Shown here piece by piece: positions 7,243 through 59,976 of a stretch of 64,000 bases of DNA. The notes beneath the pieces are model-generated. The model was given only the letters and a program-made list of their open reading frames with translations. It had not been told where the DNA came from and did no database searches. The position numbers and the translations under genes were made by a program. This DNA comes from an uncultured Acidimicrobiaceae bacterium (lineage in GTDB: Bacteria > Actinomycetota > Acidimicrobiia > Acidimicrobiales > SZUA-35). Location: contig CAZKEM010000092.1 in NCBI GenBank assembly GCA_964551835.1, forward strand, positions 1,598 to 65,597, given 5' to 3'. The stretch's first letter is position 1. Each line of letters begins with the position of its first letter.

Positions 7243-9213
7243 ATGTCCGCGAACTTGCATAAAGATTTAGGAATAGCGGGTATCGACGACATCAAGCCGT
7301 TGGACGAGAACCGGAATCCTGTCTTTTCTGGTCGCCAAAGTGTCATCGGACGAACCGTCGCCTTAAAGATACTTAACCCCCACAATGAGCCGCTGCTGCC
7401 TCGACGGTTCGACAGACGCCGGAAAGACTTCACCAAATACACCAGCAGCTCCCATGTCGTTCCGCTTTACGACAGCGGTGAGACGACAAATGGCAAGCCG
7501 TATATCGTGATGCCATATTTCAGGATTGGCTCCCTGCAAGATCAAATAAATCACGGAAAAATGCCTTGGCATCTTTCTGCCAGAATTATACAGCGAGCGA
7601 CCGAATCGGTCGCCTTAGCCCACGGCTTTGACATTGCCCTAGGCGATATCAAGCCTTCGTCGATCCTACTTAGCGACCCCGAGACACCTCGAATAGCCGT
7701 TTATGGAATGGCGACGCGCCACTTTGACGATGGCGGCCCTTCTTTCGTTGCCCCAGAAGTCGAGAAAGATCGTAGGCCTGAACTCGCAAGCGACGTCTAC
7801 AGCCTTTCGATGACACTAGGCGCATTGATCACCGGCGAGATGCCTTCTCGGTCGACGCCAACCGAGAAGTATCTCGAAAAAATTGAACCCTTGGTACCGC
7901 CGAGAATCTACGAGGTTATCGAACATGGATCGGCGACCGCTCTTTCTAATCGGTACGGCTCGGCTAAACATCTAGCGAACGTACTTGCTAGAGCAATCGC
8001 CGCCGAGACGACTTCGCAAATCAAGACGAAGTCGTCTACCCTAGTCAAACCTCCGAATCCAGAATCTAAGGTTTCCGAAAAAACCGAAGAGTTAAGAAAC
8101 GATCACGGCCCAATTTCCGTCGACGAACTGCTCGGGCCACCTGAACTGGCAAAAGACGCCGAAGCGCTGGAGCCTGAGCCGAAAATCGGAGCCAGCCACG
8201 CAAGCCAGGCCGACGATCCCGAGCAGGTAAACTCGCCCAAGCGGGCAGATATCGGTATGGACGTGTTGGTACAGTTAGGACAAGGCGATGCCTCGCAGGC
8301 GGCGAGTCAATTCAGAACGACAGCTTCTATCGGTGAATCCGACATAAATCCGGAACCAGCGGTGAGCGAATCCAAACTTCCCGACGAGGATTTTGAGGTC
8401 GAAGGGGAGTCAAAAGTTGATTCGGCTAAAGAATCGAGGTCAAAGATTTCTACTTCAGAAGAGTCAATGAGGGGCCGTAATTCCTCTTTCCTATCGCTGC
8501 CAGACGATTCGATTGGTTCAACTGAGCAGGTGGACATCACTTCGCTCAACGCCCCGATTGAGAAGCCAAGGCCTCCAAAAGACAAGTCGGATTCAGACCT
8601 GTTCCGCCAAACTCGTGTCTTTAGCGCGTCCGAGACTGACCCCCCTTGGGAAGAGCCCAGCCAACCCGGCCGGCAACAACCCCCGCTGGACGCTCAGCCT
8701 GCCCTTCGAGAAGCCAGATCCGAGCCCTATCGAAGCGGCCCACGTATGCGGGCCTCAGACAACCGACTGCACCACAAGGCCGAGTCAGATGGGATCTTAC
8801 TGTCGATTCAGGACAGTTGGCAGTCGAATAGGCAATGGTTAACTCTCGCCCTCGCAGGGTGCATCATGGTCGCTATCTCGTTGATAACGCTTAGCGTTAT
8901 CAACGGCAATGGCGGTGATTCAACGAACAATGGGGCTGACCTACCTCCGCGGACCACCGAACCTTCGGAAGCATCAGCTCCAGTGTTGAACCCGCCCCCC
9001 GCTATAAGCACAGACGATTCCGAACCCGCTCCCAATGCCACAAGCCCCCAGGGAACAAGGCGTCCGGCCAGACCAACGACCAGACCAGGTGTGAATCCGC
9101 CACCGACGACCGTCGCACCGCCGACCACAGTCGCACCACCAACCACAGTCGCACCACCTCCGCCCACAGAAAAGCCTCCGCCCACAGAAGTGCCTCCTCC
9201 AGCGGCACCTTAG
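7243..9213 (+). CDS. membrane-anchored Hanks-type Ser/Thr kinase-like protein, predicted pseudokinase
   Basis: 656 aa. Kinase fold landmarks VALKIL, YIVMPY, VAPEV and DVYSLS are present. There is no Gly-rich loop. HRDLKPSN is replaced by LGDIKPSS and DFG by VYGM. One TM helix (LTLALAGCIMVAISLITLSVI) and a Pro-rich tail. Confidence 0.75.
   Translation: MSANLHKDLGIAGIDDIKPLDENRNPVFSGRQSVIGRTVALKILNPHNEPLLPRRFDRRRKDFTKYTSSSHVVPLYDSGETTNGKPYIVMPYFRIGSLQDQINHGKMPWHLSARIIQRATESVALAHGFDIALGDIKPSSILLSDPETPRIAVYGMATRHFDDGGPSFVAPEVEKDRRPELASDVYSLSMTLGALITGEMPSRSTPTEKYLEKIEPLVPPRIYEVIEHGSATALSNRYGSAKHLANVLARAIAAETTSQIKTKSSTLVKPPNPESKVSEKTEELRNDHGPISVDELLGPPELAKDAEALEPEPKIGASHASQADDPEQVNSPKRADIGMDVLVQLGQGDASQAASQFRTTASIGESDINPEPAVSESKLPDEDFEVEGESKVDSAKESRSKISTSEESMRGRNSSFLSLPDDSIGSTEQVDITSLNAPIEKPRPPKDKSDSDLFRQTRVFSASETDPPWEEPSQPGRQQPPLDAQPALREARSEPYRSGPRMRASDNRLHHKAESDGILLSIQDSWQSNRQWLTLALAGCIMVAISLITLSVINGNGGDSTNNGADLPPRTTEPSEASAPVLNPPPAISTDDSEPAPNATSPQGTRRPARPTTRPGVNPPPTTVAPPTTVAPPTTVAPPPPTEKPPPTEVPPPAAP
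9100..9153 (+). repeat. 3 x 18-bp in-frame tandem repeat encoding (PPTTVA)3
   Basis: Direct reading: ccaccgacgaccgtcgca / ccgccgaccacagtcgca / ccaccaaccacagtcgca. Confidence 0.9.
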
Positions 9214-9905
9214 TCGACCTCCGACGCCGGTCTACTCGTTTCAGGTAAAGCCCCTGGGGTTTGGTTTGCGGCTGGAGCCGGCCGACTTGGCTGGGCTTTG
9301 GTCGTCGCAGGCAAACGCTTAGTTGTAGCCGGCTTAACCTTGGTCGTCGCAGGCAAACGCGTAGTTGTAGCCGGCTTGACCTTGGTCGTCGCAGGCAAAC
9401 GCGTAGTTGTAGCCGGCTTAACCTTAGTCGTCGCAGGCAAACGCGTAGTTGTTGCAGTCGTCGTCGTTGTTGCACCAGACTCACCAACCGTCGGCTGTTG
9501 TAGACCACCGACCTGAAGCTCGTCAGGCTGTTGAACTAAGGTAGTTGTTTTAGCCGTACTTCCGGGTTGGCTCTCCCGGCTAAGTTCGCCCTTCGAAGGA
9601 CCTTGCGGGCTTCGCCGATCTGAAGCGGTACGATCTTCGTCTACGCGCTCGACATCAGAATTGCGAGGAGTCGTTTCACTAGTACCCTGCTCGCGTTCTG
9701 TCACCCCGGTCCGAAGTTCCAATTCGGGGTGCGAAAGCTGGCGATACGCAACTGTCACAACTGGAACGCTCACGATTGCCCCGAGAAGGACTAGACCCAG
9801 TTTCGGGCGAACACGATCATAGAAGGCCAGGGCCATCTCGAGGTTAACGGGCACGACTATTTCCGCCCGTTCGAGACAGTCAAACAAGCGACTCTTGAGG
9901 TACAT
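9210..9905 (-). CDS. hypothetical membrane-anchored Thr/Pro-rich repeat protein
   Basis: 231 aa. N-terminal TM (LGLVLLGAIVSVPVVTVAY), then a disordered region and about 4 copies of PATTTRLPATTKVK. The repeat unit of 42 bp keeps the frame. The stop overlaps the stop of the convergent gene (cTTAg). Confidence 0.55.
   Translation of the reverse strand: MYLKSRLFDCLERAEIVVPVNLEMALAFYDRVRPKLGLVLLGAIVSVPVVTVAYRQLSHPELELRTGVTEREQGTSETTPRNSDVERVDEDRTASDRRSPQGPSKGELSRESQPGSTAKTTTLVQQPDELQVGGLQQPTVGESGATTTTTATTTRLPATTKVKPATTTRLPATTKVKPATTTRLPATTKVKPATTKRLPATTKAQPSRPAPAANQTPGALPETSRPASEVD
9300..9452. repeat. about 3.6 copies of a 42-bp tandem repeat
   Basis: Units at 9300-9341, 9342-9383 and 9384-9425, plus a partial fourth. 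Units differ by 1-3 substitutions (ggtcgtcgcaggcaaacgcKtagttgtagccggcttRacctt). Confidence 0.9.
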
Positions 9906-10149
9906 AAATGCGCTTTTTTAGACATTGATCATCCGGGAGACGCCTTTCCGCCAACAATCCTCCTCGACATGAATCCGCGCGCGGGGTAATTGGAGCATTT
10001 TTACCCAGACGCGAACTTCACCAACTGGTAACAGTCAGAACCAAACGGCTCGAGTACGATGCTTGTAGGGACATTAGATCGAGAGACCCGCAGCAACACA
10101 AGCACGTGAATTTCGTTTACGTCTCATTTGTTGCTCAGTCACCTAGGTC

Positions 10150-10186
10150 GGGACGTGGCTAATGCGCGGCGGCATAGCCACGTCCC
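10150..10186 (+). promoter_or_regulatory. perfect 12-bp stem hairpin in the fumC upstream/leader region
   Basis: gggacgtggcta - 13 nt loop - tagccacgtccc, about 140 nt upstream of the proposed fumC start. Confidence 0.4.
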
Positions 10187-10325
10187 TCCGCCGAACCATC
10201 GATTCGCAGACAGAAATCTCCATCATATTTCTTGCAGCTCGACCCGCCCTTCGGCACGACTCGGGGGTATCGTCTCGGTGTGGCTTAAGGGCGCGTCGCG
10301 CCGGAAACTTGAATGGAGCATACAG

Positions 10326-11732
10326 TTGTCTAACGTTGGCGCATTTCGGACTGAAACGGACTCGATGGGACCAATCGAGGTTCCCAGCGACCGCTATTGG
10401 GGAGCGCAGACCCAGCGAAGTATCGCGAACTTTCCGATTGGCAGAGATCGCTTTGTTTGGGGTCGCGCTGTAATCGAGGGCCTTGGTCTGCTCAAGTCCT
10501 GCGCTGCAACCGCCAACGGTGAGCTAGACCAGCTCCCCGAAGATGTCGTCGCGCTAGCCGTCGAAGCAGCTGACGAAGTCGCCGCCGGCAACCACGATGA
10601 TCACTTCCCTCTAGTCGTGTTCCAAACCGGATCAGGAACGCAGTCGAACATGAACTCCAACGAGGTAATTGCGAATCGGGCGATCGAGATCTCTGGCGGC
10701 ACCCTTGGGTCAAAGACTCCAGTTCACCCAAACGATCACGTCAACCGCGGTCAATCATCGAACGACACATTTCCTACCGCTATGCATGTCGCAACCCGCC
10801 TAGAACTCGAACGAGAACTCTTCCCAAAAGTTGGGAAACTTCGAGAGACCTTAAACGCCAAGGCCGAAGAGTACGCCGACCTTGTCAAAGTCGGTCGAAC
10901 GCACCTGCAAGACGCTACCCCAATCACCCTCGGTCAAGAAATAGGCTCATGGGTAGCACAGATCGACCAAGCTTTAGTCGGCGTCCACCAGGCCTCCGAA
11001 GGGCTATGCGAACTGGCGATCGGCGGCACGGCGGTTGGCACTGGACTCAACGCGCACCCGGAATTCGGTGATCGCGTGGCAGCCCTATTAGCTGAACGAA
11101 CCGGCCATCCGTTTACATCAGCCGAAAACAAATTCGCTGCCCTCGCGGCACACGACGCCATCGTTGCTACATCGGCATCGCTACGGACCTTAGCTGGAGT
11201 CCTTCTCAAGATGGCGAACGATGTTCGGTGGCTTGCTAGCGGGCCCCGAAATGGTATCGGGGAACTCGTTATCCCCGCTAACGAACCGGGGTCATCGATC
11301 ATGCCCGGAAAGGTAAACCCCACGCAGTGCGAGGCCATGACGATGGTTGCCGCTCAGGTGTTCGGTAATGATACTGCGGTCGCCTTTGCCGGCAGCCAAG
11401 GTAACTTCCAACTAAATGTCTTTAAACCCGTAATGGTTCACAACGTGATCGAAAGTATCCGTCTGCTCGGCGATACCTGCGTGGCCTTCAACGACAACAC
11501 AGCTGTCGGTATCGAACCTAACAGAGAGCGAATCCAACAAAACCTGGATCAGAACCTAATGCTGGTTACTGCCCTGAACCGGGCGATCGGTTACGACAAG
11601 GCCGCTGAGATCGCCAAATTTGCCCACAAGAACGGACTCAGCCTTAGAGACGCCGCTCTTAAGTTAGGGGTCACGGCAGCCGAATACGACGAGCTCGTCG
11701 TACCAATCAAGATGACAACTCCGACCAGCTAA
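10326..11732 (+). CDS. fumC: class II fumarate hydratase
   Basis: [16 protein letters not shown] signature. The N-terminus [24 protein letters not shown] matches the canonical FumC start. TTG at 10326 is preceded by GGAG 8 nt upstream. The ORF is open from 10128, but that extension looks non-coding. Confidence 0.9.
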
Positions 11733-11737
11733 GCGAG

Positions 11738-13555
11738 ATGGTGGTGCCAATACCTGGCGCCACCTCTAACAAATGGATTCATGTTACTAACAAATGGATT
11801 CGTGTGACCGATTGGTATGGCGTGAGTGTCAAAGCGCCTCCCGTAGAGGGCCAACAATGGTTCAACGCCGAACCCATCGTCTGGGATGAACTCCTCGGGC
11901 GTGTCGTCGTCTTGGTGTTTTGGGGCGCCGCTGACGAGGCTTCGTTGGCCAGAATCGCGCAAGTCCAAGAGCTATCCGCTTTGTATCCGAACTTGGCATC
12001 TATCGGGATTCACACTCCACGTCTTCCCTATGAGGACGATGCCGACAATGTTGCGTCAATTATCGGCCAGTACAACATCACTATCCCAATTGTCCATGAC
12101 CCTGAATATGTCACGTGGAACCGCTACAACCCTGATGGCTGGCCGACCACACTGGTCATCGATGACCGCCTGAACGCTATTGGCGTCCAGGCAGGCGTCG
12201 ACTACTTTGAAACGCTCAAGGAGGCAGTCTGGCTCGCTGTAAGCGTCGCAGACAAACGTCAAGTAGGCCAGGCTCGGCTTCCGCTCGGAACTCCTCAACT
12301 TCAGCCAGTCGACGAGTCCGGTTCACCTCTCCGTTATCCAAGCTGTGTTCGGGCGATATCTGACAACGAGCTAGTAGTCGTCGATTCGGGCCATGACCGG
12401 CTCCTAATCGCCGAGGTGAATACTGAGAACTCCACCGCTCGAGTCACTGCCACGATCGACGGGTTTGATAGTCCGGGGGCTATTGCGGTCCCCGATGACC
12501 CAAAGCATAAGGACAAACTTTTCGTTAGCGAGCCAGCAAACGGGTCGATTATAAGATACGACCGTTCGTTCGGAACGCGCTTTGTTCTCACCGACCAGCT
12601 CATACGACCGACTGGACTGTCCATGGATTATGACGGATCCTTGGTCGTGGCTGACTCCGCGTCTGAACAGTTGCTACGGATACCGAACCCCTACGCAGAC
12701 CAAGACATCCAGCTAGGCTTGATAGCCGGAAATGGGATGTCGGGAAGTGAAGACGGAACATCGACCAACGCCTCGCTGGCCCAACCAACAGCATTCGCAA
12801 GGACCGAGGTTGGTATGGTATTTTGCGACGCTGCAGCTAGCAGTCTGCGCCTCCTGACAGACAGCGGAAAAATTACAACCATTATCGGAGATGAATTTGA
12901 ATGGGGCCATGTTGACGGCCCCGCTCATCAAGCTAGATTGCAACGCCCAAGCGACTTGGCAATTTTGGGTGATGGTTCGATCATCATCGTCGATACGGGC
13001 AACGGCCGACTGAGGCGACTCTCCAAACGCCGTGTCGCTACGGTTGGACCAGAACAGCTCAACAGAGCAACCAGCGTTTGCGTGATGCCATCAGGGCACG
13101 TCATCGTCGCCGAAACAGGTTCAGACCAGCTAATTTTCATGAATTCAACGTTGAAGTCGGCCACACCGCTAGAACTCGAAGGACTAGCTGATGCCACCTC
13201 CGTTTCAATGGAGAATCCGGCAAGCTCAGAGTCGTCTTCAAACGGGCAAACGCCTCCTGGCACATCTCTCAGAGGTCTGGAAGGCGAACAGTTGGCCGTT
13301 AGCTATCCCTCGCCGTCGACGGGTCCATGGAATGTTTCGGTCCACTCAGAACCATCTACACTGCTGACCGGACCAATTTCGGTTACCAGAAACAGCTCCG
13401 CTGGCAAGGTTCAGGTCACCCTCGGTTCCGTTGGTAACGGCCAACTCATCGTCCGTTCAGACCTGATTCGCGACTCGACTGTCGCCGTATCAAAAAAATG
13501 GCAACTCGCCGTTACCGACGCCGAACAATCGGAATCATCTAACCTGAACAGTTAG
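11738..13555 (+). CDS. thioredoxin-fold (redoxin-like) domain fused to NHL-repeat beta-propeller protein
   Basis: 605 aa. The N-terminal block LLGRVVVLVFWGAADEASLARIAQVQEL...WPTTLVIDDRLNAIG resembles TlpA/AhpC-like redoxins but lacks the CxxC. It is followed by repeated NHL-like units (VVDSGHDRLL, VADSASEQLLRI, IVDTGNGRLRRL, VAETGSDQLIF). The start is uncertain; an in-frame GTG at 11804 is an alternative. Confidence 0.75.
   Translation: MVVPIPGATSNKWIHVTNKWIRVTDWYGVSVKAPPVEGQQWFNAEPIVWDELLGRVVVLVFWGAADEASLARIAQVQELSALYPNLASIGIHTPRLPYEDDADNVASIIGQYNITIPIVHDPEYVTWNRYNPDGWPTTLVIDDRLNAIGVQAGVDYFETLKEAVWLAVSVADKRQVGQARLPLGTPQLQPVDESGSPLRYPSCVRAISDNELVVVDSGHDRLLIAEVNTENSTARVTATIDGFDSPGAIAVPDDPKHKDKLFVSEPANGSIIRYDRSFGTRFVLTDQLIRPTGLSMDYDGSLVVADSASEQLLRIPNPYADQDIQLGLIAGNGMSGSEDGTSTNASLAQPTAFARTEVGMVFCDAAASSLRLLTDSGKITTIIGDEFEWGHVDGPAHQARLQRPSDLAILGDGSIIIVDTGNGRLRRLSKRRVATVGPEQLNRATSVCVMPSGHVIVAETGSDQLIFMNSTLKSATPLELEGLADATSVSMENPASSESSSNGQTPPGTSLRGLEGEQLAVSYPSPSTGPWNVSVHSEPSTLLTGPISVTRNSSAGKVQVTLGSVGNGQLIVRSDLIRDSTVAVSKKWQLAVTDAEQSESSNLNS
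11768..11809 (+). repeat. 21-bp tandem duplication (2 copies, 4 mismatches)
   Basis: aacaaatggattcatgttact / aacaaatggattcgtgtgacc, directly after the fumC stop. If translated it reads NKWIHVT-NKWIRVT. Confidence 0.85.
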
Positions 13556-19920: not shown

Positions 19921-20379
19921 CTAACTAGCCGTGTACCAAGGAATATCACGACCTTTGCTCTTCCAGAACATGGTGTGAATGGCCTCAATCTGACTCATCA
20001 GCTCTTCACCAGCGGCCACATCGACGGTAGTTTTACATTTCGACGCTTGTTTGGCTGCGTTCCAAAAGGTCGAGTGAAGTTCTGGGAACGTTTCAAGATG
20101 GTCGGGCTTGAAGTAATCGTGCCACAAGATATTGAGTTCTCGCTTTACGTCCTCAGCTTGTTCTTCCTTAATCGCCACGAAACGGGCGTAGGTGTTTTGA
20201 GCGCCCGGCGTTTGCATGTCGAGCGCCACCAATTTCTTGGTCATCGATAGAACAGCTTCACCAGCGATCCGGGCGCTGGCTGGGTCATATACGCCACAAG
20301 GGCCATCACAGTGTGCAGAAGCTACAGGAGCTGGACTACAAAGATCAACTACGTCAAACAGGCGGGCAAGAAAGTTCAT
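19921..20379 (-). CDS. sodN: nickel-containing superoxide dismutase precursor
   Basis: 152 aa. A propeptide is followed by the Ni-hook HCDGPCGVYDP. Strong SD (GGAGGAA) upstream of ATG 20379. Confidence 0.9.
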   Translation of the reverse strand: MNFLARLFDVVDLCSPAPVASAHCDGPCGVYDPASARIAGEAVLSMTKKLVALDMQTPGAQNTYARFVAIKEEQAEDVKRELNILWHDYFKPDHLETFPELHSTFWNAAKQASKCKTTVDVAAGEELMSQIEAIHTMFWKSKGRDIPWYTAS

Positions 20380-39758: not shown

Positions 39759-40799
39759 TTAGAGTAACTGGAATCGTGGGTTGCCTTCCGTTACCGTGCC
39801 GACTACCGCCGCTCGGTGCCCGGTTTCTTCCAATTCTTGAACTACGTTCGCAGACTCGCCCGGGTCTACCCCAAAGACAAGTCCGCCTGAAGTCTGAGCA
39901 TCGGAGATCAACAGCTGGTGGGTTTCGGGGTGAGAACCGGGCTCAAATAGCTCGGCGCCCCATGACAGGTTCCGACGACTACCTCCGGGCATCACGCCTT
40001 CGTTCGCCAGCCCGACCGCTCCTTCGAGGAACGGAACCGATTCGAAGGCAACTGAAACCGCTACCTTCGACTCGATGGCCATACGTCCTAAGTGCCCCAA
40101 CAAGCCGAAGCCTGTTACGTCGGTGCATCCCGTCGCGCCAGCGGCCAAAGCGACGCTAGAAGCAGTATCGTTGAGGCGAACCATCGAATCCACGGCACCA
40201 GCCGCTATATCATCGGCAGCCTTGTCGGCCTTTATCGCTGTGGTGATAACACCGACACCCAACGGCTTGGTCAAGATCAGTTCTTGACCTGGCTTTAGAC
40301 CCGTGTTGGTCAAGATTCTTTTTGGATCAACCTCACCGGTAACCGACATTCCGTATTTGGGTTCTGGGTCGTCGATCGTATGGCCGCCCACGATCGCAAA
40401 GCCGCCAGCAGTTGCCACATCCTGACCGCCCGCTAATACTTCACCTAGCAGTGATGTTGGCAACGCTTCGGTGTTCCAGCCGACGAGATTGAGAGCAAAC
40501 ATTGGCTTGGCTCCCATTGCGTAGATGTCAGAGACGCTATTCGCCGCCGCCACACGACCCCACGTTCGGGCGTCATCGACAACCGGCGTGATAAAGTCAG
40601 CCGTCGAAACTAGTGCCCGCCCTTCGTCGAGTTTCCATACCGCCGCGTCGTCGCCCGTTGAAGGTCCGACCAACAACTCTTCTGTGGTGTCCGTCTGCAA
40701 ATCACGCACAACGTGCGCGAGCTCGCCTGGGGCGAGTTTGCAGCCTCAACCGGCTCCGTGGCTGAACTGGGTAAGTCTAAACGATGTTGGTTTGCTCAT
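39759..40799 (-). CDS. selD: selenide, water dikinase (selenophosphate synthetase), selenocysteine-containing form
   Basis: The track ORF (39759..40709) lacks the SelD N-terminus. Reading upstream in the same frame gives MSKPTSFRLTQFSHGAG-TGA-GCKLAPGELAHVV-RDLQ..., where the TGA (40748..40746) sits at the position of the active-site Cys/Sec of GxGC/UGCK. The rest matches SelD (DDAAVWKL, STADFITPVVDD, AANSVSDIYAMGAKP). Confidence 0.85.
40716..40748 (-). promoter_or_regulatory. in-frame UGA plus candidate bacterial SECIS hairpin of selD
   Basis: UGA GGCUGCAAA CUCGC-CCCAG-GCGAG CUCGC. The stem starts 10 nt after the UGA. The alternative self-complementary GCGAGCUCGC adjoins it. Confidence 0.5.
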
Positions 40800-46807: not shown

Positions 46808-47434
46808 TCAACCAATCGCCGTCGTTACCGCATCGGCGTCAAACCGGTCCCAGCGTTGGAGTTCTTCTCCAGACGAATCCAGTAGGATCGCCGTGTGCCG
46901 ACCTGTAACCTCATAGGCCTTCCAGATATCTCCTCCTTGGGACCAAACCAGATCTGCCGCCTCGGTTTGTGCTCCCTCTTGGAAGCTGACGGCTAATTCT
47001 TCTGTGTCTTGGGTTCCGACTCCGACCACTCGAACTTTGTCTGCGTTAAGTGAAGCTAACTGCTCCACGTCAGGCGCTTGGGCCTGGCAGCTGGCTCAAT
47101 GTGGGAAGTAGAACCAAAGTAAGACCGGAGTGTCCCCGCCGGAGAGAAATTCGTCAAACTTCACGTTTTGACTGTCGTTCAGGCTTAAGACCTCAACAGC
47201 AGGAAACGAAGACTCCCCAGGCGACTCGGCACCAGAACCGTCATCCGCGCTTGGGCTCGGGCTTGAATTTGGCGCAGGATCTGTGCCCGCATCGGCTGCG
47301 GTTTCAGATCCACCGCAACTGGCAGCGACGAGTGCAGTCGATACGACGAGGGCGGCAAAGACACGGCGCTTCGACTTGGCTGGCTCGCCACGCGGTTGGA
47401 TGCCCTGGGTTTCAGGTTTCATAGAAGAGTCCAT
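46808..47434 (-). CDS. thioredoxin-fold thiol:disulfide oxidoreductase-like lipoprotein, predicted selenoprotein (U-x-x-C)
   Basis: Track ORFs 47096..47434 and 46808..47068 share one frame and are separated only by TGA at 47098..47096. Read-through gives VLLWFYFPH-U-ASC-QAQAPDVEQLASLNADKVRVVGVG...HTAILLDSSGEEL, a TlpA/ResA-like layout with the TGA at the first Cys of CxxC. Lipobox ALVAASC near the N-terminus. Confidence 0.7.
47059..47098 (-). promoter_or_regulatory. in-frame UGA plus candidate SECIS stem-loop of the redoxin-like gene
   Basis: UGA GCCA GCUGC CAGGC [CCAAGC] GCCUG ACGUGGA GCAGU. Two stacked 5-bp stems begin 5 nt after the UGA. Confidence 0.45.
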
Positions 47435-47576: not shown

Positions 47577-49151
47577 ATGGCAAAGAAACCCCCAATATTC
47601 GACTCCCGCCTTGTAGGAGCGGCTGCCGCCGTCGCTTCTATGGGTTCCGCCGAGCTTCTAGCTGCAGCAATGCGCCCCCACCCTGGGCCGGTGGTCGCCG
47701 TCAGCGCTCGGGTGGTCGCCTACGCTCCAACATGGTTTGTTGATCTCGGAAAGACGTTGTTTGGGTTTTCGGACAAGGTGGCGTTGTTGATCGGGACGGC
47801 GATCCTGACCGTTGTGATCGGTTCGCTGCTGGGCAAGCTGGGGCGAGAACGCATGGACTGGGCTCTTGTAGGAATTGGAGTGATGCAAGCAATCGGCTTC
47901 GCGTCAATGGTGAGCGATGACAATGGAACAGCCGGAACATCGATGTTTCTCACCATCGCAGGAACGTTGGCCGGCGTCATCGTCTTTGTGGTTCTGATGG
48001 GCCTAATCACGCCAATCCGTAAGCCTGCCGACGGCCAGGGCTCAGAGATATCCCCGACCAACCCCCCGGTTGGTCGCCGCACGTTTCTGGCTGCCGCCGG
48101 CGTTGTCACTGCGTCGGGCGCAATCATGGGCGTTGGTGGAACCCAGCTCCGAGATCGGGGCTCGGCAAACACGACGGCTACCGGGGCGTCTTTTCCACCA
48201 TCGCCTGACGCCAAAGCGGTCGACTCGCTTGTCGAAGAAGCAAACGGGTCGGTTGTCGGGCTGACCGAGAGTATTACCCCAGCTGTGGTACCCAACGACG
48301 ACTACTATCGGATAGATACTGCGCTGTTCGTCCCGAGTATCAACGCCCGCGACTGGTCGCTGACCATAGATGGTTTGGTCGATAACCCTCTGACGTTATC
48401 TTATGACGAACTCGTAGAACGTTCCACGACAATCAAACCGGTTACCCTGTCGTGCGTATCAAATGAGGTGGGCGGGCCGTTGGTTGGCAACGCTGTTTGG
48501 CAGGGAGTACCGTTACAGGATCTCTTGGAAGAAGTAGGAGTGAAGCCCGAAGCTACCCAAGTCGCTAGCTTTGCCGACAATTGGTCATGTGGGTTTCCGA
48601 CCGCAGCACTCGATGATGATAGGACAGCTCTCGTCGCTGTTGGGATGAACGGCGAGCCGCTGCCCAACCAACATGGTTTCCCGGCTCGATTAGTTGTTTC
48701 TGGGCTCTATGGCTACGTGTCAGCCACCAAGTGGCTCAGGCGGATCGAACTGACTACTCTGGAAGACTTCGATGGGTTTTGGATCGACAAGGGTTGGGCC
48801 AAGATCGCTCCGGTCAAGACCCAGGCCCGGATCGACGTTCCCTTCCCGTCACAAGAGTTCGACGGTTCGAGCCCGATCGATATCGCCGGGGTCGCATGGG
48901 CGCCCAACATCGGCGTCGAACGGGTCGAGATCCAAGTCGACTCCGGACCATGGATTGAGGCAGAACTCGGGACCAGCTTGGGCCCTGACGCATGGCGTCA
49001 ATGGCGGGTGAAATGGGAAGGCGAACCTGGCGAACATGTGGTGCAGGTGCGGGCGACGCGGGCTGACGGCGAAGTTCAAACAGGAGATGTTGCCGAGCCA
49101 GCGCCCGACGGGGCGACAGGGTGGCATTCCCGTAGGTTCATCTCGTTCTAA
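47577..49151 (+). CDS. molybdopterin-dependent oxidoreductase (sulfite-oxidase family) with N-terminal membrane domain
   Basis: 524 aa. About 4 TM helices, then a Moco domain (LTLSCVSNEVGGPLVGNAVWQGVPLQDLL, GFPARLVVSGLYGYVSATKWLRRIEL) and an Ig-like dimerisation-type C-terminus. Confidence 0.8.
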   Translation: MAKKPPIFDSRLVGAAAAVASMGSAELLAAAMRPHPGPVVAVSARVVAYAPTWFVDLGKTLFGFSDKVALLIGTAILTVVIGSLLGKLGRERMDWALVGIGVMQAIGFASMVSDDNGTAGTSMFLTIAGTLAGVIVFVVLMGLITPIRKPADGQGSEISPTNPPVGRRTFLAAAGVVTASGAIMGVGGTQLRDRGSANTTATGASFPPSPDAKAVDSLVEEANGSVVGLTESITPAVVPNDDYYRIDTALFVPSINARDWSLTIDGLVDNPLTLSYDELVERSTTIKPVTLSCVSNEVGGPLVGNAVWQGVPLQDLLEEVGVKPEATQVASFADNWSCGFPTAALDDDRTALVAVGMNGEPLPNQHGFPARLVVSGLYGYVSATKWLRRIELTTLEDFDGFWIDKGWAKIAPVKTQARIDVPFPSQEFDGSSPIDIAGVAWAPNIGVERVEIQVDSGPWIEAELGTSLGPDAWRQWRVKWEGEPGEHVVQVRATRADGEVQTGDVAEPAPDGATGWHSRRFISF

Positions 49152-56389: not shown

Positions 56390-57127
56390 TTAGTGGTCGT
56401 TTGCCGCTTGTTCAAGGTGAGACCAGTCCGAGGTCGACAAATCCTGGCTCGCTTCGGGGCGAGAATCCAATCGTGGGCGACGAAATACTATTCGGCGGGA
56501 CGGGTTCTTTAGCGGCCGCTTTCTCCGACGTGACCCTTTTACTTTGAGGGTCGGATCTGCAGTTTCGGTTCCATCACCATCATCTAAGTCGTCCTGCCCT
56601 AAAGCGAGGTGACCCTGCCGGACTCGATCGTGGCCGGCCCGCTGGGCCGCCACAGGTATAGCGACCTGGCCGATATCGGACGCCTTCGGAATGTTCAAGT
56701 TCGGCGGCTCTGCCCGCTTTCGAACGTAACGTTCACGACGAACCAGGCGTCCACCAATTTGGATAGCGACACCCAGGTACAACACAAGCGCCAACGCAAC
56801 TGTGGCGGCCAGAACCAAGAAGGGGCCCCGTAGTACGATCGCTAACGCACAGGATGCGATGGTCATCGCGGCCAACGCTATTAGAAGTTGCCGACGACGA
56901 GCGAATAACCCCTGAGATCTCCAGTTACGAACCGGGCCAAACATCGGTTGGAGCAAAATGAGCCCAAGCGACCTAACCGAAGGACGCCTGTAGTCGATAC
57001 CCCCGTCCGAGGACCTCATGCGGCGCACTAAATAGGATATTTTGGACAGCACTGGTCGGCCTAAAACGTACAGCCAAGCGACGACGAGAATCCCCGCAAC
57101 GACAAGGTTAAAGACCGAGGTGTTCAT
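56390..57127 (-). CDS. hypothetical basic membrane protein
   Basis: 245 aa. About 3 TM helices and an Arg/Lys-rich C-terminal half. The start overlaps the moaC stop (ATGA). Confidence 0.5.
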   Translation of the reverse strand: MNTSVFNLVVAGILVVAWLYVLGRPVLSKISYLVRRMRSSDGGIDYRRPSVRSLGLILLQPMFGPVRNWRSQGLFARRRQLLIALAAMTIASCALAIVLRGPFLVLAATVALALVLYLGVAIQIGGRLVRRERYVRKRAEPPNLNIPKASDIGQVAIPVAAQRAGHDRVRQGHLALGQDDLDDGDGTETADPTLKVKGSRRRKRPLKNPSRRIVFRRPRLDSRPEASQDLSTSDWSHLEQAANDH

Positions 57128-57672
57128 CGAGGGAGAGGCCCGAAGGAGTCTCCACCCGGTTCCTCACCACCTGCCGCTTCGACCCGCTTGTACGGGCCAG
57201 AACGCCCACCTGTCTTTTCCCATAACGCTATGTCTGAAATGACCATCGACTTGTCGGCCGACTTACACATGTCATAGATAGTTAGCGCAGCGACCGAACA
57301 AGCGGTCAGCGCTTCCATCTCAACGCCGGTTCGGTCAACTGTGTCGACTTCTGCTTCAACTTGAATATGGTTGTCGCCAATATTGAAACTCACATTCACA
57401 GCGCCCACCGTTACGTTATGACATAACGGGAGCAGGTCAGACGTCTTCTTAGCTGCCTGGATCGCCGCTATCCGAGCGACAGCCAAAACATCGCCCTTTG
57501 TGACGGTTCCCCTGGCCACAAGATCAGTCGTTTCCGGCCGCATGTAAACGCGCCCACGAGCTACCGCTCGTCGAAAGGTCGGTTCCTTCGGCGTCACGTC
57601 GACCATACGCGCTCGGCCAATAGGATCTAGATGAGTTAATTTGCGATCTCCCACAAGGCCAAGATAGTGCAT
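57124..57672 (-). CDS. moaC: cyclic pyranopterin monophosphate synthase
   Basis: LTHLDPIGRARMVDVTPKEPTFRRAVA, KGDVLAVARIAAIQAAKKTSDLLPLCH, TGVEMEALTA. Confidence 0.85.
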   Translation of the reverse strand: MHYLGLVGDRKLTHLDPIGRARMVDVTPKEPTFRRAVARGRVYMRPETTDLVARGTVTKGDVLAVARIAAIQAAKKTSDLLPLCHNVTVGAVNVSFNIGDNHIQVEAEVDTVDRTGVEMEALTACSVAALTIYDMCKSADKSMVISDIALWEKTGGRSGPYKRVEAAGGEEPGGDSFGPLPR

Positions 57673-57690
57673 TTTGTGGTGACTGGTCGA

Positions 57691-58707
57691 CTACCCGCCT
57701 ACTTGGCTCATAGATTTCGTTGGCCTGACGAAGTAAACCTGCCCGATATTGTGTCCGGCCCGTTTGCGCTCGACCTCGCCGACGATGGCGTCGGCCAATT
57801 CAGAGTCGCTTTTTCCTGCTCGGAGTAACGCTCGTAAATCCAAGTGTTCGAGCGCAAAAAGACAGTTTCGTAACTGACCATCGGCGGTCAGACGAATCCG
57901 GTCACATGATTCGCAGAATGGCTCGCTTACGCTGGCGATGATTCCAAACTCGCCGCCTTGGGCATTTTCACCCAAATCGGGAAAAAGTTCAGGCTTTACT
58001 TCAAATTGGAATCGTTCTGCGGGAGACGACCCTCGAGTAATCTCTTCATAGCGATATCGATTCGAGACCTGTTCCAAGATCTCAGCGGATGTCACAACGC
58101 GATCCTGGGACCACTGCTCGCTTGCATCTAGCGGCATAAATTCGATAAATCGTACCGTCACACCCGTCTTGCGACCGAATTCCAAAAAGTCGATGACTTC
58201 AGAATCATTAATCCCTTTCATCAACATTGCGTTGACTTTCACGGGATCAAATCCGGCCTGTTTAGCAGCGTCAATTCCCGCCAATACCTGTGGCAACTGG
58301 TCGCGTTTAGTCAAGTCCGCAAATGTTTGACGATCGAGTGTATCGAGACTGATGTTTATGCGGGACAGACCAGCGCCGTAAAGATCTTTCGCTTGGTGCT
58401 CCAACGTTGCACCGTTAGTCGTCATCGACAATTCGACACCCAAGCTAGCCAATTGTTCAACCAAGAGATGTAGCTGCTTACGCAGCGTAGGCTCTCCCCC
58501 GGTCAGGCGAATCGATTTGAGGCCGAACCGCTCGACTAAGACGCTGGCCACCCGGTAAATCTCGTCGAAAGACAAGACGTCAGACCGTTTAAGCCAGACC
58601 ATACCTTCCTCCGGCATGCAATATTGACACCGGAAATTACATCGATCGGTCACGGAGATTCTGAGATCTCTATGTACGCGTCCAAAGGTATCGGTCAGAT
58701 CTTCCAC
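57691..58707 (-). CDS. moaA: GTP 3',8-cyclase (radical SAM)
   Basis: LRISVTDRCNFRCQYCMPEEG, RLTGGEPTLR, C-terminal CESCDRIRLTADGQLRNCLF. Confidence 0.9.
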   Translation of the reverse strand: MEDLTDTFGRVHRDLRISVTDRCNFRCQYCMPEEGMVWLKRSDVLSFDEIYRVASVLVERFGLKSIRLTGGEPTLRKQLHLLVEQLASLGVELSMTTNGATLEHQAKDLYGAGLSRINISLDTLDRQTFADLTKRDQLPQVLAGIDAAKQAGFDPVKVNAMLMKGINDSEVIDFLEFGRKTGVTVRFIEFMPLDASEQWSQDRVVTSAEILEQVSNRYRYEEITRGSSPAERFQFEVKPELFPDLGENAQGGEFGIIASVSEPFCESCDRIRLTADGQLRNCLFALEHLDLRALLRAGKSDSELADAIVGEVERKRAGHNIGQVYFVRPTKSMSQVGG

Positions 58708-58716
58708 ATTCTTAGA

Positions 58717-59976
58717 CTACTCGTTCAGGACCGAACTGGAGAATACCGAATCATCGGTTAACAAGACCTTCACTCGACCGCCAGCCGCGGCTTGTGCTCC
58801 GTCGGGTAGAACAGCAAGCGCGTTCGATGCCGCCAACGCACGCAATTGGTGCGACCCCTGGCCTCCCGCATATCGGACGTGCAGAGCCCCGTCGCTCTGG
58901 TTTGAGGCAACCACTCTGACGAAGTGCGTCTTGCCATCCAAGCGTCGCCGCATCGGCTCATCGGCAATCGCCGTGACCAGCCGACGAAATGGCTTTGAGT
59001 CACCGAGCATCATGCGCAAACTAGGGCGGGCGAACAGTTCGAACGAGACCGACGCCGAGACCGGGTTACCGGGCAAACCAAATATAGGTGTGTCGTTCAC
59101 CAGGCCGAACGAGAGCGGCTTTGCTGGCTTAATCGCAATTTGCATCCAGTCATGATCGCCTAGACGACTAAGTACTTCTTTAACCGGGTCGTAGTCCCCC
59201 ATCGAAACTCCACCAGAACTGACAATCGCGTCGCAGTCCGCAGCGCCGGCGACAAAAGCAGCTTCGACTAAGGCTTCGTCGTCGGCCACATGACCGAGGT
59301 CGACGGGCGTACACCCAGCCGCCTCGACTTGGGCAAGAAGCATCGGGCGGTTGGAGTCATAAATTTGACCAGGACCCAACGGAGTTGGCGGCGCCAACAA
59401 TTCGTCTCCGGTCGAAATCACCCCGACGCGGGGACGCTGGTATACCTTGATGGTGGCGAGACCCGTCGATATCAGGAGGCCAATATGGCTTGCATCAAGT
59501 ACGGTGCCAGCGGTTACCACAATGTCGCCTGGCTCGACGTCGCTTCCCGCTGGGCGGAGATGGTTACCAATGTCAATAGCCGCGTGTAGCGACACAGACT
59601 CGGTTCCCGCTTCAGCGTCGAAATGGGCTTCGGTCAATTCCACCTTGATGACCGCATCGGCACCCTCGGGCAACGGGGCGCCAGTCATTATTCTCATCGC
59701 CTCGCCGCGCCTAAGTTCTCGGCTCGCCGTCGTTCCAGCAGGGATGGTTTCAACTACGGGCAGCTCAACCGGCTCTGTGGCAGAAGCAGCCGTGGAGTCG
59801 GCAGCGACAATAGCGAAACCATCCATCGCGACACTGATGAACGGCGGCATCTGAATAGCCGAAGCCACCTCCTGGGCTGGGACGAGTCCCACAGCGTCGC
59901 AAACATCTACCTCGACCACCGGGTTGGGCCTAACGTCTTCAAAAACCCTGGCCTGGGCATCACTGAGCGAAATCAT
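58717..59976 (-). CDS. moeA: molybdopterin molybdotransferase
   Basis: 419 aa. MDGFAI, TGDEL, SSGGVSMGDYD, PGNPVSA. Confidence 0.85.
   Translation of the reverse strand: MISLSDAQARVFEDVRPNPVVEVDVCDAVGLVPAQEVASAIQMPPFISVAMDGFAIVAADSTAASATEPVELPVVETIPAGTTASRELRRGEAMRIMTGAPLPEGADAVIKVELTEAHFDAEAGTESVSLHAAIDIGNHLRPAGSDVEPGDIVVTAGTVLDASHIGLLISTGLATIKVYQRPRVGVISTGDELLAPPTPLGPGQIYDSNRPMLLAQVEAAGCTPVDLGHVADDEALVEAAFVAGAADCDAIVSSGGVSMGDYDPVKEVLSRLGDHDWMQIAIKPAKPLSFGLVNDTPIFGLPGNPVSASVSFELFARPSLRMMLGDSKPFRRLVTAIADEPMRRRLDGKTHFVRVVASNQSDGALHVRYAGGQGSHQLRALAASNALAVLPDGAQAAAGGRVKVLLTDDSVFSSSVLNE

What the first reader, a model, noticed from the sequence alone, without database searches (positions are those of the whole stretch)
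46808..47434. Hidden selenoprotein: thioredoxin-fold lipoprotein with U-x-x-C, split in the ORF track by one in-frame TGA
- Two minus-strand track ORFs (47096..47434 and 46808..47068) are in the same frame. The offset is 366 nt, a multiple of 3.
- The only interruption between them is TGA at 47098..47096.
- Read-through yields ...GDTPVLLWFYFPH-U-ASC-QAQAPDVEQLASLNADKVRVVGVG...GRHTAILLDSSGEELQRW.
- The stop therefore falls exactly where TlpA/ResA/DsbE-type redoxins carry the first Cys of W-C-x-x-C. The downstream part supplies the rest of the thioredoxin fold.
- The N-terminus has a lipobox (ALVAASC), so this would be an exported, lipid-anchored Sec enzyme.
- A two-tier stem-loop (47091..47059) follows the UGA at SECIS-like spacing.
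- A Sec-type selD lies 6 kb away.
- Bacterial Sec/Cys redoxin families are known. An extracytoplasmic lipoprotein version in an actinobacterial-type genome would be unusual.
Basis: partly seen in the sequence, partly recalled or inferred. Interest (0 to 1): 0.8.

Follow-up and report, generated by a model that had tools for sequence, protein, structure and literature searches.

The report
Selenocysteine DsbE/DsbF-type lipoprotein redoxin gene
The apparent stop codon that splits this gene very probably encodes selenocysteine in the active site of a membrane-anchored, exported disulfide-exchange enzyme; this is an unannotated but widespread marine actinobacterial branch of an already known kind of selenoprotein.

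Summary
The two minus-strand ORFs are one 208-codon gene (47434..46808), interrupted only by TGA 47098..47096.

- **Conserved TGA:** it sits at the first position of a U-x-x-C redox motif. It is kept in three syntenic Acidimicrobiales species at 38-56% protein identity. It is also kept in 67 of 80 related metagenome loci; the other 13 have TGC (Cys).
- **Coding continues:** protein conservation runs on past the TGA.
- **Family:** a family profile best matches M. tuberculosis DsbF (E 1.7e-24) and DsbE/MPT53 (E 6e-22). A lipobox is found in nearly all complete N-termini.
- **Sec use in this genome:** selD, 6 kb away, carries its own in-frame TGA. TGA also ends 11 of 43 long ORFs, so the genetic code is standard.

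The conserved element is two adjacent hairpins. The second (47068..47050) has an A-G-U-U-N loop 34 nt after the UGA, a compensatory pair and frozen synonymous codons, and meets the published bacterial SECIS consensus. selD has the same layout.

Sec-containing thioredoxin-fold oxidoreductases are long known, so this is a new member of a known kind. selA, selB and tRNA-Sec could not be checked.

The parts
46808..47434 (-). Complete selenoprotein gene: 208 codons plus stop. ATG at 47434; public gene calls use the ATG at 47422. Sec113 at the in-frame TGA; true stop TGA 46810..46808.
   Evidence: Orthologues align end to end across the TGA.
47315..47434 (-). Signal peptide with lipobox (KSKRRVFAALVVSTALVAAS-C40); the Cys40 codon is 47317..47315.
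   Evidence: Read directly from the sequence. A hydrophobic stretch followed by [LVA][AST][AGS]-C-G is found in nearly all complete N-termini of the family. No dedicated signal-peptide predictor was run.
47096..47098 (-). UGA = Sec113, first residue of the U-x-x-C redox motif (FPH-U-ASC).
   Evidence: TGA at this column in L003, L004, L005 and 67 of 80 metagenome loci; TGC in the other 13.
47087..47089 (-). Cys116 (TGC), the resolving cysteine of U-x-x-C.
   Evidence: Invariant column in alignment A5.
47071..47086 (-). SECIS hairpin 1: CAGGC-CCAAGC-GCCUG, -6.6 kcal/mol. Its position is conserved, its register shifts by 1 nt between clades, and its loop holds the Glu codon in most members.
   Evidence: Compensatory changes at alignment pairs 19:27 and 20:26.
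47050..47068 (-). SECIS hairpin 2, the conserved core: GUGGAGC-AGUUA-GCUUCAC, -8.4 kcal/mol, z -3.85. The loop starts 34 nt after the UGA; GUU is at 47060..47058.
   Evidence: This is the RNAalifold consensus. Pair 36:50 is CG 46, UA 12, GC 2, UG 2, CA 1. Synonymous codons are frozen: Ala GCT 65/65 against 12% background. It meets the bSECIS consensus quoted in PMC13188914.
46895..46897 (-). His180, at the position where most family members and DsbE/DsbF have the thioredoxin-fold cis-Pro (Q-P).
   Evidence: Seen in the window, L003, L028, L047 and P0002.
39759..40799 (-). selD (selenophosphate synthetase), itself a selenoprotein: TGA 40748..40746; GUU-capped hairpin 40719..40703.
   Evidence: (TIGR00476, 371 bits).
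47577..49151 (+). Divergently transcribed neighbour: a membrane-anchored molybdopterin oxidoreductase (Oxidored_molyb). It is conserved next to the redoxin in the closest clade only.

Best explanation
**What it is.** The region 47434..46808 (minus strand) is one gene for a 208-residue selenoprotein in an Acidimicrobiales (Actinomycetota) bacterium.

**How the UGA is read (inferred from comparative evidence).**
- UGA 47098..47096 is decoded as selenocysteine by SelB and Sec-tRNA(Sec).
- Decoding is directed by an in-frame bacterial SECIS made of two adjacent hairpins.
- The distal hairpin (47068..47050) is probably the SelB-binding element. It has a 5-7 bp stem and an A-G-U-U-N loop 34 nt after the UGA.

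**What the protein is (shown by homology).** It is an exported, lipid-anchored thioredoxin-fold thiol:disulfide oxidoreductase of the actinobacterial DsbE/DsbF (MPT53) type.

**How it probably works (inferred from established thioredoxin-fold chemistry).**
- Sec113 takes the place of the nucleophilic first Cys of C-x-x-C. It attacks substrate disulfides or oxidised cysteines on the outer face of the membrane.
- Cys116 resolves the intermediate as a selenosulfide.
- In several branches of the family an adjacent CcdA/DsbD-type membrane protein suggests that electrons come from the cytoplasm, so the protein would act as a reductant or isomerase.
- In the window's own clade the conserved neighbour is instead an extracytoplasmic Mo-oxidoreductase. 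The direction of electron flow here is unknown.
For: **Conserved recoding site**
- TGA sits at the same column in three syntenic species at 56%, 42% and 38% identity, whose true stop codons differ.
- TGA is found in 67 of 80 metagenome loci (63 distinct sequences). TGC is found in the other 13.
- An exhaustive HMMER search returns two kinds of hit: full-length Cys forms (WFWAPH-C-PxC) and many 85-100 aa fragments that start just after the U column.

**Coding continues past the TGA**
- Invariant G, G, A, F, W, W columns lie downstream of it.

**SECIS**
- RNAalifold selects hairpin 2. Pair 36:50 changes on both sides in 14 sequences.
- Synonymous codons are frozen: Ala +14 GCT 65/65 (12% background), Glu GAG 65/65, Gln CAG 64/65, Arg CGA 35/49 (19% background).
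- The 12 Cys forms lack both the codons and the E-Q-F-A-R peptide.
- Hairpin 2 meets all four published bSECIS criteria.
- selD in the same window has the same two-hairpin layout, with GUU at +37..39 against +39..41 here.
- A simple rule was applied to both strands of the window: an open frame on both sides of the TGA, plus a stem of at least 6 bp capped by GUU at +28..47. It selects only these two of 103 candidate TGAs.

**Sec trait and genetic code**
- selD is Sec-type.
- TGA terminates 11 of 43 long ORFs.

**Family**
- Profile against PDB: 3IOS DsbF 1.7e-24 and 1LU4 MPT53 6.2e-22; the next hit is 1e-12.
- Pfam Redoxin and AhpC-TSA match 32 of 32 members.
- Lipobox is present family-wide.
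- A DsbD_TM/CcdA gene is adjacent in 16 loci.
Against: - No selA, selB or tRNA-Sec is present in the 64 kb window or in any fetched locus. The rest of the genome could not be scanned.
- There is no experimental evidence of Se incorporation.
- Rfam has no hit, although bacterial SECIS elements are poorly represented there.
The choice of hairpin 2 therefore rests on comparative data.
- Part of hairpin 1 could be a by-product of the R-A-E-A-P codons.
- The window protein is a divergent member: Pfam E-values are only about 1e-7. It lacks the cis-Pro, so its chemistry may differ from DsbE/DsbF.
- The metagenome scan used patterns taken from Sec forms, so the 67:13 ratio is biased.
Confidence: 0.9

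Rival explanations
1. The gene is a genuine selenoprotein gene, but the functional SECIS is the reader's two-tier stem-loop. That is hairpin 1 stacked on a lower stem pairing the Cys codon region (47091..47087) with GCAGU (47063..47059). Hairpin 2 would not be the SECIS.
For: - It is the minimum-energy fold of the window's 52-57 nt segment.
- The loop of hairpin 1 lies 15-17 nt after the UGA, close to the E. coli fdhF spacing.
- The three inner pairs of the lower stem can form in all 63 sequences.
Against: - The lower stem has no pair that changes on both sides. Its columns are fixed by the Cys codon and by hairpin 2 itself.
- It cannot explain the frozen GCT/CGA codons at columns 46-51 or the 36:50 covariation.
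- The selD SECIS in the same genome has the two-hairpin layout.
Confidence: 0.12
2. The gene is a pseudogene, or the TGA is a sequencing or assembly error. On this reading the TGA is a lesion in a former Cys-type redoxin gene.
For: Gene callers split the gene into 108 aa and 86 aa ORFs, and public records leave them unnamed or hypothetical.
Against: - The same TGA appears in three independent assemblies.
- It appears in three other species and in 63 distinct metagenome sequences, with intact frames and conserved protein downstream.
Confidence: 0.01
3. UGA is read through without selenium. This could be by a reassigned code (UGA = Trp, Gly or Cys) or by leaky termination. Alternatively it truly terminates, yielding a 112-residue lipoprotein plus a separate downstream peptide.
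For: No tRNA-Sec, selA or selB was seen in the sequence available.
Against: - TGA ends 11 of 43 long ORFs in the window, including this gene itself.
- The UGA replaces the catalytic Cys exactly, and the homologues carry Cys, not Trp or Gly.
- A Sec-type selD sits in the same window.
- A SECIS under nucleotide-level selection follows the UGA only in the TGA forms.
- The segment after the TGA has no conserved start codon.
Confidence: 0.03

Closest known systems
Mycobacterium tuberculosis DsbF (Rv1677, PDB 3IOS) and DsbE/MPT53 (Rv2878c, PDB 1LU4)
   Same: - These are by far the best solved-structure matches of the family profile: E 1.7e-24 and 6.2e-22 over about 100-110 residues.
- The active-site context is the same: (L)WFWaP-x-[C/U]-P-x-C-x-x-E-A-P.
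- Both are exported or lipid-anchored actinobacterial thioredoxin-fold proteins.
- Many relatives sit next to a CcdA/DsbD-type membrane protein.
   Different: - Sec replaces the first Cys.
- His replaces Trp before the active site.
- The window protein also has His in place of the cis-Pro.
- There is no CcdA neighbour in the window.
- Sequence identity is low: the window protein alone scores only E ~1e-6.
Catalogued Sec-containing thioredoxin-fold oxidoreductases: 'thiol:disulfide interchange protein', 'Trx-like 1/2/3' and 'Prx-like' families (Zhang et al. 2006, PMC1794560; Zhang and Gladyshev 2008, PMC2398784; review PMC13188914)
   Same: - U-x-x-C motif with Sec at the first position.
- Cys-containing homologues exist.
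- The SECIS lies in the coding region directly after the UGA.
- These families are abundant in marine metagenomes.
   Different: - The named genome examples are Deltaproteobacteria (Geobacter, Syntrophus).
- None of the texts read names an actinobacterial DsbE/DsbF-type lipoprotein.
- No NCBIfam selenoprotein model reaches its cut-off here.
- Whether the GOS 'Trx-like' bins already contain this clade could not be tested.
TlpA / ResA / CcmG(DsbE) extracytoplasmic reductants
   Same: Same fold and Pfam families (Redoxin, AhpC-TSA, Thioredoxin_8). All are membrane-tethered and extracytoplasmic, and are paired with CcdA/DsbD in part of the family.
   Different: - Profile matches are much weaker, E 1e-11 to 1e-10.
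- No cytochrome c maturation genes were noticed among the annotated neighbours; ResB/ResC/Ccm genes were not specifically searched for.
- The first active-site residue is Sec.
Consensus bacterial SECIS (bSECISearch model; E. coli fdhF type)
   Same: Hairpin 2 has a 5 nt loop with G at the second position followed by U (N1-G-U-N-N2). Its stem is at least 5 bp, the spacing is 34 nt (allowed range 16-37) and the MFE is -8.4 kcal/mol.
   Different: - The spacing is near the upper limit.
- An extra hairpin fills the spacer.
- The sequence does not resemble fdhF.
- No Rfam hit.

Membership tests
Bacterial selenoprotein gene (Sec-decoded UGA) | In-frame UGA aligned with Cys in homologues (a Sec/Cys pair) | tested here: met
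   TGA against TGC at one column. The Cys forms are P0005, P0007, P0012 and others, plus 13 metagenome loci.
Bacterial selenoprotein gene (Sec-decoded UGA) | UGA conserved in orthologues of other species, with protein conservation on both sides | tested here: met
   L003, L004 and L005, plus 63 distinct metagenome sequences.
Bacterial selenoprotein gene (Sec-decoded UGA) | bSECIS stem-loop after the UGA: loop 3-9 nt, stem at least 4 bp, G in the first two loop positions, spacing 16-37 nt, MFE at most -7.5 kcal/mol | tested here: met
   Hairpin 2 at 47068..47050 has loop AGUUA, a 7 bp stem, 34 nt spacing and -8.4 kcal/mol. It is supported by covariation and frozen synonymous codons.
Bacterial selenoprotein gene (Sec-decoded UGA) | Genome encodes selD, selA, selB and tRNA-Sec | tested here: inconclusive
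   selD is present and is itself Sec-type. selA, selB and selC are absent from the window and the loci.
Bacterial selenoprotein gene (Sec-decoded UGA) | Selenium demonstrably incorporated (75Se labelling or mass spectrometry) | not testable with these tools
   This needs an experiment.
Thioredoxin-fold TlpA/ResA/DsbE-type redoxin | Match to Pfam Redoxin, AhpC-TSA or Thioredoxin_8 above the gathering score | tested here: met
   The window protein scores 33, 28.1 and 26.6 bits, all just above the cut-offs. All 32 family members match, with best E 1e-17.
Thioredoxin-fold TlpA/ResA/DsbE-type redoxin | W/H-C-x-x-C active site at the start of helix 1 | tested here: met
   FPH-U-ASC in the window. 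The U/C and C columns are invariant.
Thioredoxin-fold TlpA/ResA/DsbE-type redoxin | Conserved cis-proline loop facing the active site | tested here: not met
   The window protein has G-R-H180-T where most members and DsbE/DsbF have Q-P-(T/A). The feature is met in most other family members.
Actinobacterial DsbE/DsbF (MPT53) family | Closest sequence relationship to DsbF/DsbE rather than to other redoxins | tested here: met
   Profile E-values are 1.7e-24 and 6.2e-22, against 1e-12 or weaker for all others.
Actinobacterial DsbE/DsbF (MPT53) family | Secretion signal or lipoprotein anchor | tested here: met
   A lipobox Cys follows a hydrophobic segment in the window and in nearly all complete homologues. 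This is a pattern match only.
Selenoprotein family 'thiol:disulfide interchange protein' (PF13098, Geobacter type; PMC13188914) | Orthology to the named Geobacter/Syntrophus proteins | tested here: inconclusive
   PF13098 matches 22 of 32 family members weakly but does not match the window protein.

The most novel reading that the evidence does not exclude
The window's subclade has three distinguishing features: Sec113-x-x-Cys116, a His replacing the active-site cis-Pro, and a conserved divergent pairing with a membrane-anchored extracytoplasmic molybdopterin oxidoreductase instead of CcdA. On the most novel reading, it is not a generic disulfide exchanger. It would be the dedicated selenium-based redox partner of that Mo enzyme, forming an unrecognised envelope repair or detoxification module in marine Acidimicrobiia.
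Probability: 0.12. Interest if true: 0.6.

Novelty: new member of a known kind. Interest (0 to 1): 0.38.

Why it matters
- **Annotation.** It adds a well-supported, widespread selenoprotein clade (63 distinct Sec-form sequences found here) to the Acidimicrobiia, a major marine and sediment actinobacterial lineage. Public gene calls currently split the gene into two nameless fragments, so annotation pipelines could correct it.
- **SECIS example.** The E-Q-F-A-R peptide and its frozen codons exist only in the Sec forms. This shows a SECIS dictating protein sequence.
- **Lineage SECIS pattern.** The redoxin and selD share a two-hairpin, GUU-capped layout. This gives a usable lineage-specific pattern for finding other selenoproteins in these genomes.
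- **Limits.** It does not change the understanding of Sec biology. Sec-for-Cys replacement in thioredoxin-fold oxidoreductases is the commonest kind of bacterial selenoprotein.

Tried and rejected
- The word-indexed protein search with the U-to-C read-through found nothing.
I therefore searched with the 95 residues after the TGA.
The four-orthologue alignment A3 worked.
- Rfam and ARAGORN found nothing in the window.
- Motif and ARAGORN scans found no SelA, SelB or tRNA-Sec in any locus.
- The BSepDB and deep-Sep papers do not mention this family or lineage.
- Cluster look-up gave no informative names.

**Analyses with limited value**
- A fixed-register model of hairpin 1 underestimates it, because the register shifts by 1 nt between clades.
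- Stop-to-stop ORF clustering of the flanks was noisy in this GC-rich DNA. Only the NUDIX, Mo-oxidoreductase, CcdA and flavoprotein clusters were usable.

**Steps not attempted**
- A covariance model: the strong primary-sequence conservation of hairpin 2 would make hits circular.

Full report
**1. Observation**

On the minus strand, ORFs 47434..47096 and 47068..46808 share a frame. The only interruption is TGA 47098..47096. Read-through gives a 208-residue protein:
- a basic and hydrophobic N-terminus ending in a lipobox (…ALVAAS-C40);
- a low-complexity linker;
- …PVLLWFYFPH-U113-AS-C116-QAQAPDVEQLASL…;
- a true stop at TGA 46810..46808.

With U replaced by C, Pfam gives Thioredoxin_8, Thioredoxin, Redoxin and AhpC-TSA, all just above their gathering scores.

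Two other assemblies carry the same contig at 99.9% identity with the TGA intact: ENA ERZ27295816 and Logan SRR7595258. Their gene callers split the gene into 108 aa and 86 aa ORFs.

**2. Organism and the Sec trait**

The neighbouring Mo-oxidoreductase retrieves Acidimicrobiales MAGs as its nearest relatives.

The selD gene (40799..39759, minus strand) scores 371 bits on TIGR00476. It has its own in-frame TGA at the catalytic position, SHGAG-U-GCK. By established knowledge of the Sec pathway, a Sec-type selD is only functional in an organism that decodes UGA as Sec.

TGA also terminates 11 of 43 long ORFs in the window, so the genetic code is standard.

No tRNA, selA or selB is present in the window or in any fetched locus. 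The rest of the genome could not be scanned.

**3. Comparative test of the TGA**

- *Syntenic genomes.* Three Acidimicrobiales genomes carry the gene in the same place, divergent from the Mo-oxidoreductase. They are 56%, 42% and 38% identical at the protein level. All have TGA at the same column (FPH-U-PSC, APH-U-PTC, APH-U-STC). Their real terminators differ: TAA, TAA and TAG, against TGA in the window.
- *Metagenome scan.* A scan with the four-orthologue alignment returned 80 loci. Of these, 67 have TGA at the column and 13 have TGC. Three loci carry two tandem Sec paralogues. The search patterns came from Sec forms, so this ratio is biased.
- *Exhaustive HMMER search.* The query was the 95 residues after the TGA, searched against 1.84 billion representatives. 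It gave 70 hits of two kinds: full-length 170-270 aa lipoproteins with WFWAPH-C-PxC-(R/N)AEAP, and many 85-100 aa fragments beginning MCNREAP…, VCRAEGP… or VTCNAEAP…. The fragments are the gene-caller halves of TGA-split genes.
- *Downstream conservation.* Invariant G, G, A, F, W and W columns lie after the TGA.

Pseudogene, sequencing error and simple termination are therefore excluded.

**4. The recoding signal**

I aligned 63 distinct Sec-form segments without gaps (alignment A4). Two adjacent hairpins follow the UGA.

*Hairpin 1* (window 47086..47071) is GC-rich.
- Its loop is usually the Glu codon GAR.
- Its register shifts by one nucleotide between clades.
- It shows compensatory changes at two pairs.

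*Hairpin 2* (window 47068..47050) is the structure RNAalifold selects.
- Four pairs are invariant or nearly so (one shows G-U in two sequences).
- The fifth pair (36:50) is C-G in 46 sequences, U-A in 12, G-C in 2, U-G in 2 and broken in 1.
- The loop is A-G-U-U-N.
- In the window the stem carries a double change relative to the consensus (GUGGAGC/GCUUCAC against GUCGAGC/GCUCGAS), although the encoded peptide changes from VEQFAR to VEQLAS.

*Synonymous sites are frozen*.

| Codon position | Observed in Sec forms | Background in the same genes |
|---|---|---|
| Ala +14 | GCT 65/65 | 12% of Ala codons |
| Glu +11 | GAG 65/65 | 68% |
| Gln +12 | CAG 64/65 | 69% |
| Phe +13 | TTT 29/60 | 15% |
| Arg +15 | CGA 35/49 | 19% |

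The 12 Cys forms have neither these codons, nor the E-Q-F-A-R peptide, nor a consistent hairpin.

*Fit to the published consensus.* Hairpin 2 alone folds at -8.4 kcal/mol (z -3.85). It satisfies the published bacterial SECIS model: loop 3-9 nt, stem at least 4 bp, the N1-G-[G/U]-N-N2 pattern, spacing 16-37 nt (here 34), and MFE at most -7.5 kcal/mol (PMC13188914).

*Independent support from selD.* The selD UGA in this window, and in L003, is followed by the same layout. Its second hairpin is CGCGCAC-GUU-GUGCGUG, with GUU at +37..39 against +39..41 in the redoxin.

*Specificity check.* I applied one rule to both strands of the window. It requires an in-frame TGA with 40 open codons on each side, plus a stem of at least 6 bp capped by GUU or NGUUN at +28..47. 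It selects exactly these two sites out of 103 candidate TGAs, from 1913 TGAs in all.

That hairpin 2 is the SelB-binding part is an inference. It has not been shown.

**5. What the protein is**

A profile of 32 family members matches M. tuberculosis DsbF (3IOS, E 1.7e-24) and DsbE/MPT53 (1LU4, E 6.2e-22). All other thioredoxin-fold structures score far worse: ResA, CcmG and thioredoxins are at 1e-12 or weaker. The active-site context is shared (WFWAPWCPTCQGEAP in DsbF).

Nearly all complete N-termini in the family have a hydrophobic segment followed by a lipobox Cys.

In 16 loci (10 Cys-form, 6 Sec-form) a DsbD_TM/CcdA gene lies next to the redoxin. This points to electron supply from the cytoplasm in those branches.

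In the window's clade the conserved neighbour is a membrane-anchored Mo-oxidoreductase, transcribed divergently. It is seen in about 15 of the closest loci and in L003-L005.

The window protein and a few close relatives carry His where the cis-Pro of the fold normally sits.

The mechanism is inferred from established thioredoxin-fold chemistry. Sec113 is the exposed nucleophile, and Cys116 resolves the mixed intermediate into a selenosulfide. Whether the protein acts as oxidant, reductant or isomerase is not determined.

**6. Comparison with what is known**

- Several 'Trx-like' and 'Prx-like' U-x-x-C families are among the most abundant marine selenoproteins (PMC2398784).
- A 2026 review lists many more, including exported ones (PMC13188914).
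- A 2026 preprint reports universal Sec machinery and a Sec-type selD in Actinomarina, another Acidimicrobiia lineage.
- No NCBIfam model reaches its cut-off for this protein, and public records of the fragments are unnamed or 'hypothetical'.

The finding is therefore a real, unannotated member of a known kind, not a new kind.

**7. Verdict**

| Question | Verdict |
|---|---|
| Observation | Confirmed |
| Confidence that this is a Sec-decoded gene | About 0.9 |
| Interest | Moderate-low for a specialist (0.38) |

Noticed in passing
window 39759..40799 (-): selD is itself a selenoprotein (TGA 40748..40746, SHGAG-U-GCK). Its UGA is followed by two adjacent hairpins, the second capped by GUU (40719..40703). 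L003 has the same arrangement.
   Followed up: yes
window 47050..47068 (-) and alignment A4 columns 34-52: In Sec forms, the peptide V-E-Q-F-A-R just after U-x-x-C is the SECIS hairpin read as protein. Ala is GCT in 65/65 genes. Cys forms have a variable peptide there.
   Followed up: yes
window 46895..46897 (-): His180 replaces the thioredoxin-fold cis-Pro (GRHTAIL against consensus GQPTAIL) in the window, L003, L028, L047 and P0002. Another subclade has N-S at this position. The consequence for the chemistry is unknown.
   Followed up: partly
L067 ~3111 and ~3944; also L068, L071: Two Sec-containing paralogues of the redoxin lie in tandem on the same strand, each with its own lipobox and SECIS.
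   Followed up: partly
L048, L050, L051, L056, L063, L069 (Sec forms); L049, L052, L053, L055, L073, L075, L077, L079, L080, L094 (Cys forms): A DsbD_TM/CcdA-type membrane protein gene lies next to the redoxin (Pfam PF02683, 32 bits). The window has none.
   Followed up: partly
window 47577..49151 (+) and 57124..59976 (-): The divergent neighbour is a membrane-anchored molybdopterin oxidoreductase with an internal RRTFL twin-arginine-like motif. MoaC, MoaA and MoeA-like genes lie 8-11 kb away; these were named from reading the translations, not by HMM.
   Followed up: partly
L006 ~9200..11500: This Acidimicrobiales genome has the NUDIX and Mo-oxidoreductase genes but no redoxin gene between them.
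   Followed up: no
L063 ~3111, L069, L070: These Sec-form redoxins continue for about 125 residues beyond the usual C-terminus, an Ala/Asp-rich extension with two further Cys.
   Followed up: no
window 11738..13555 (+): A thioredoxin-like (AhpC-TSA, weak) plus NHL-repeat protein has no cysteines in the usual C-x-x-C position (…VFWGAADEASL…).
   Followed up: no
window 19921..20379 (-): A small ORF has the N-terminal motif AHCDGPCGVYDP, typical of nickel superoxide dismutase. This is recognised from memory and was not tested by HMM.
   Followed up: no
L001 9232..9846; L002 93..707: Public gene calls for this gene are two separate ORFs (108 aa and 86 aa) with no Pfam hit. Cluster look-ups of homologous fragments give no name or 'hypothetical protein'.
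   Followed up: yes
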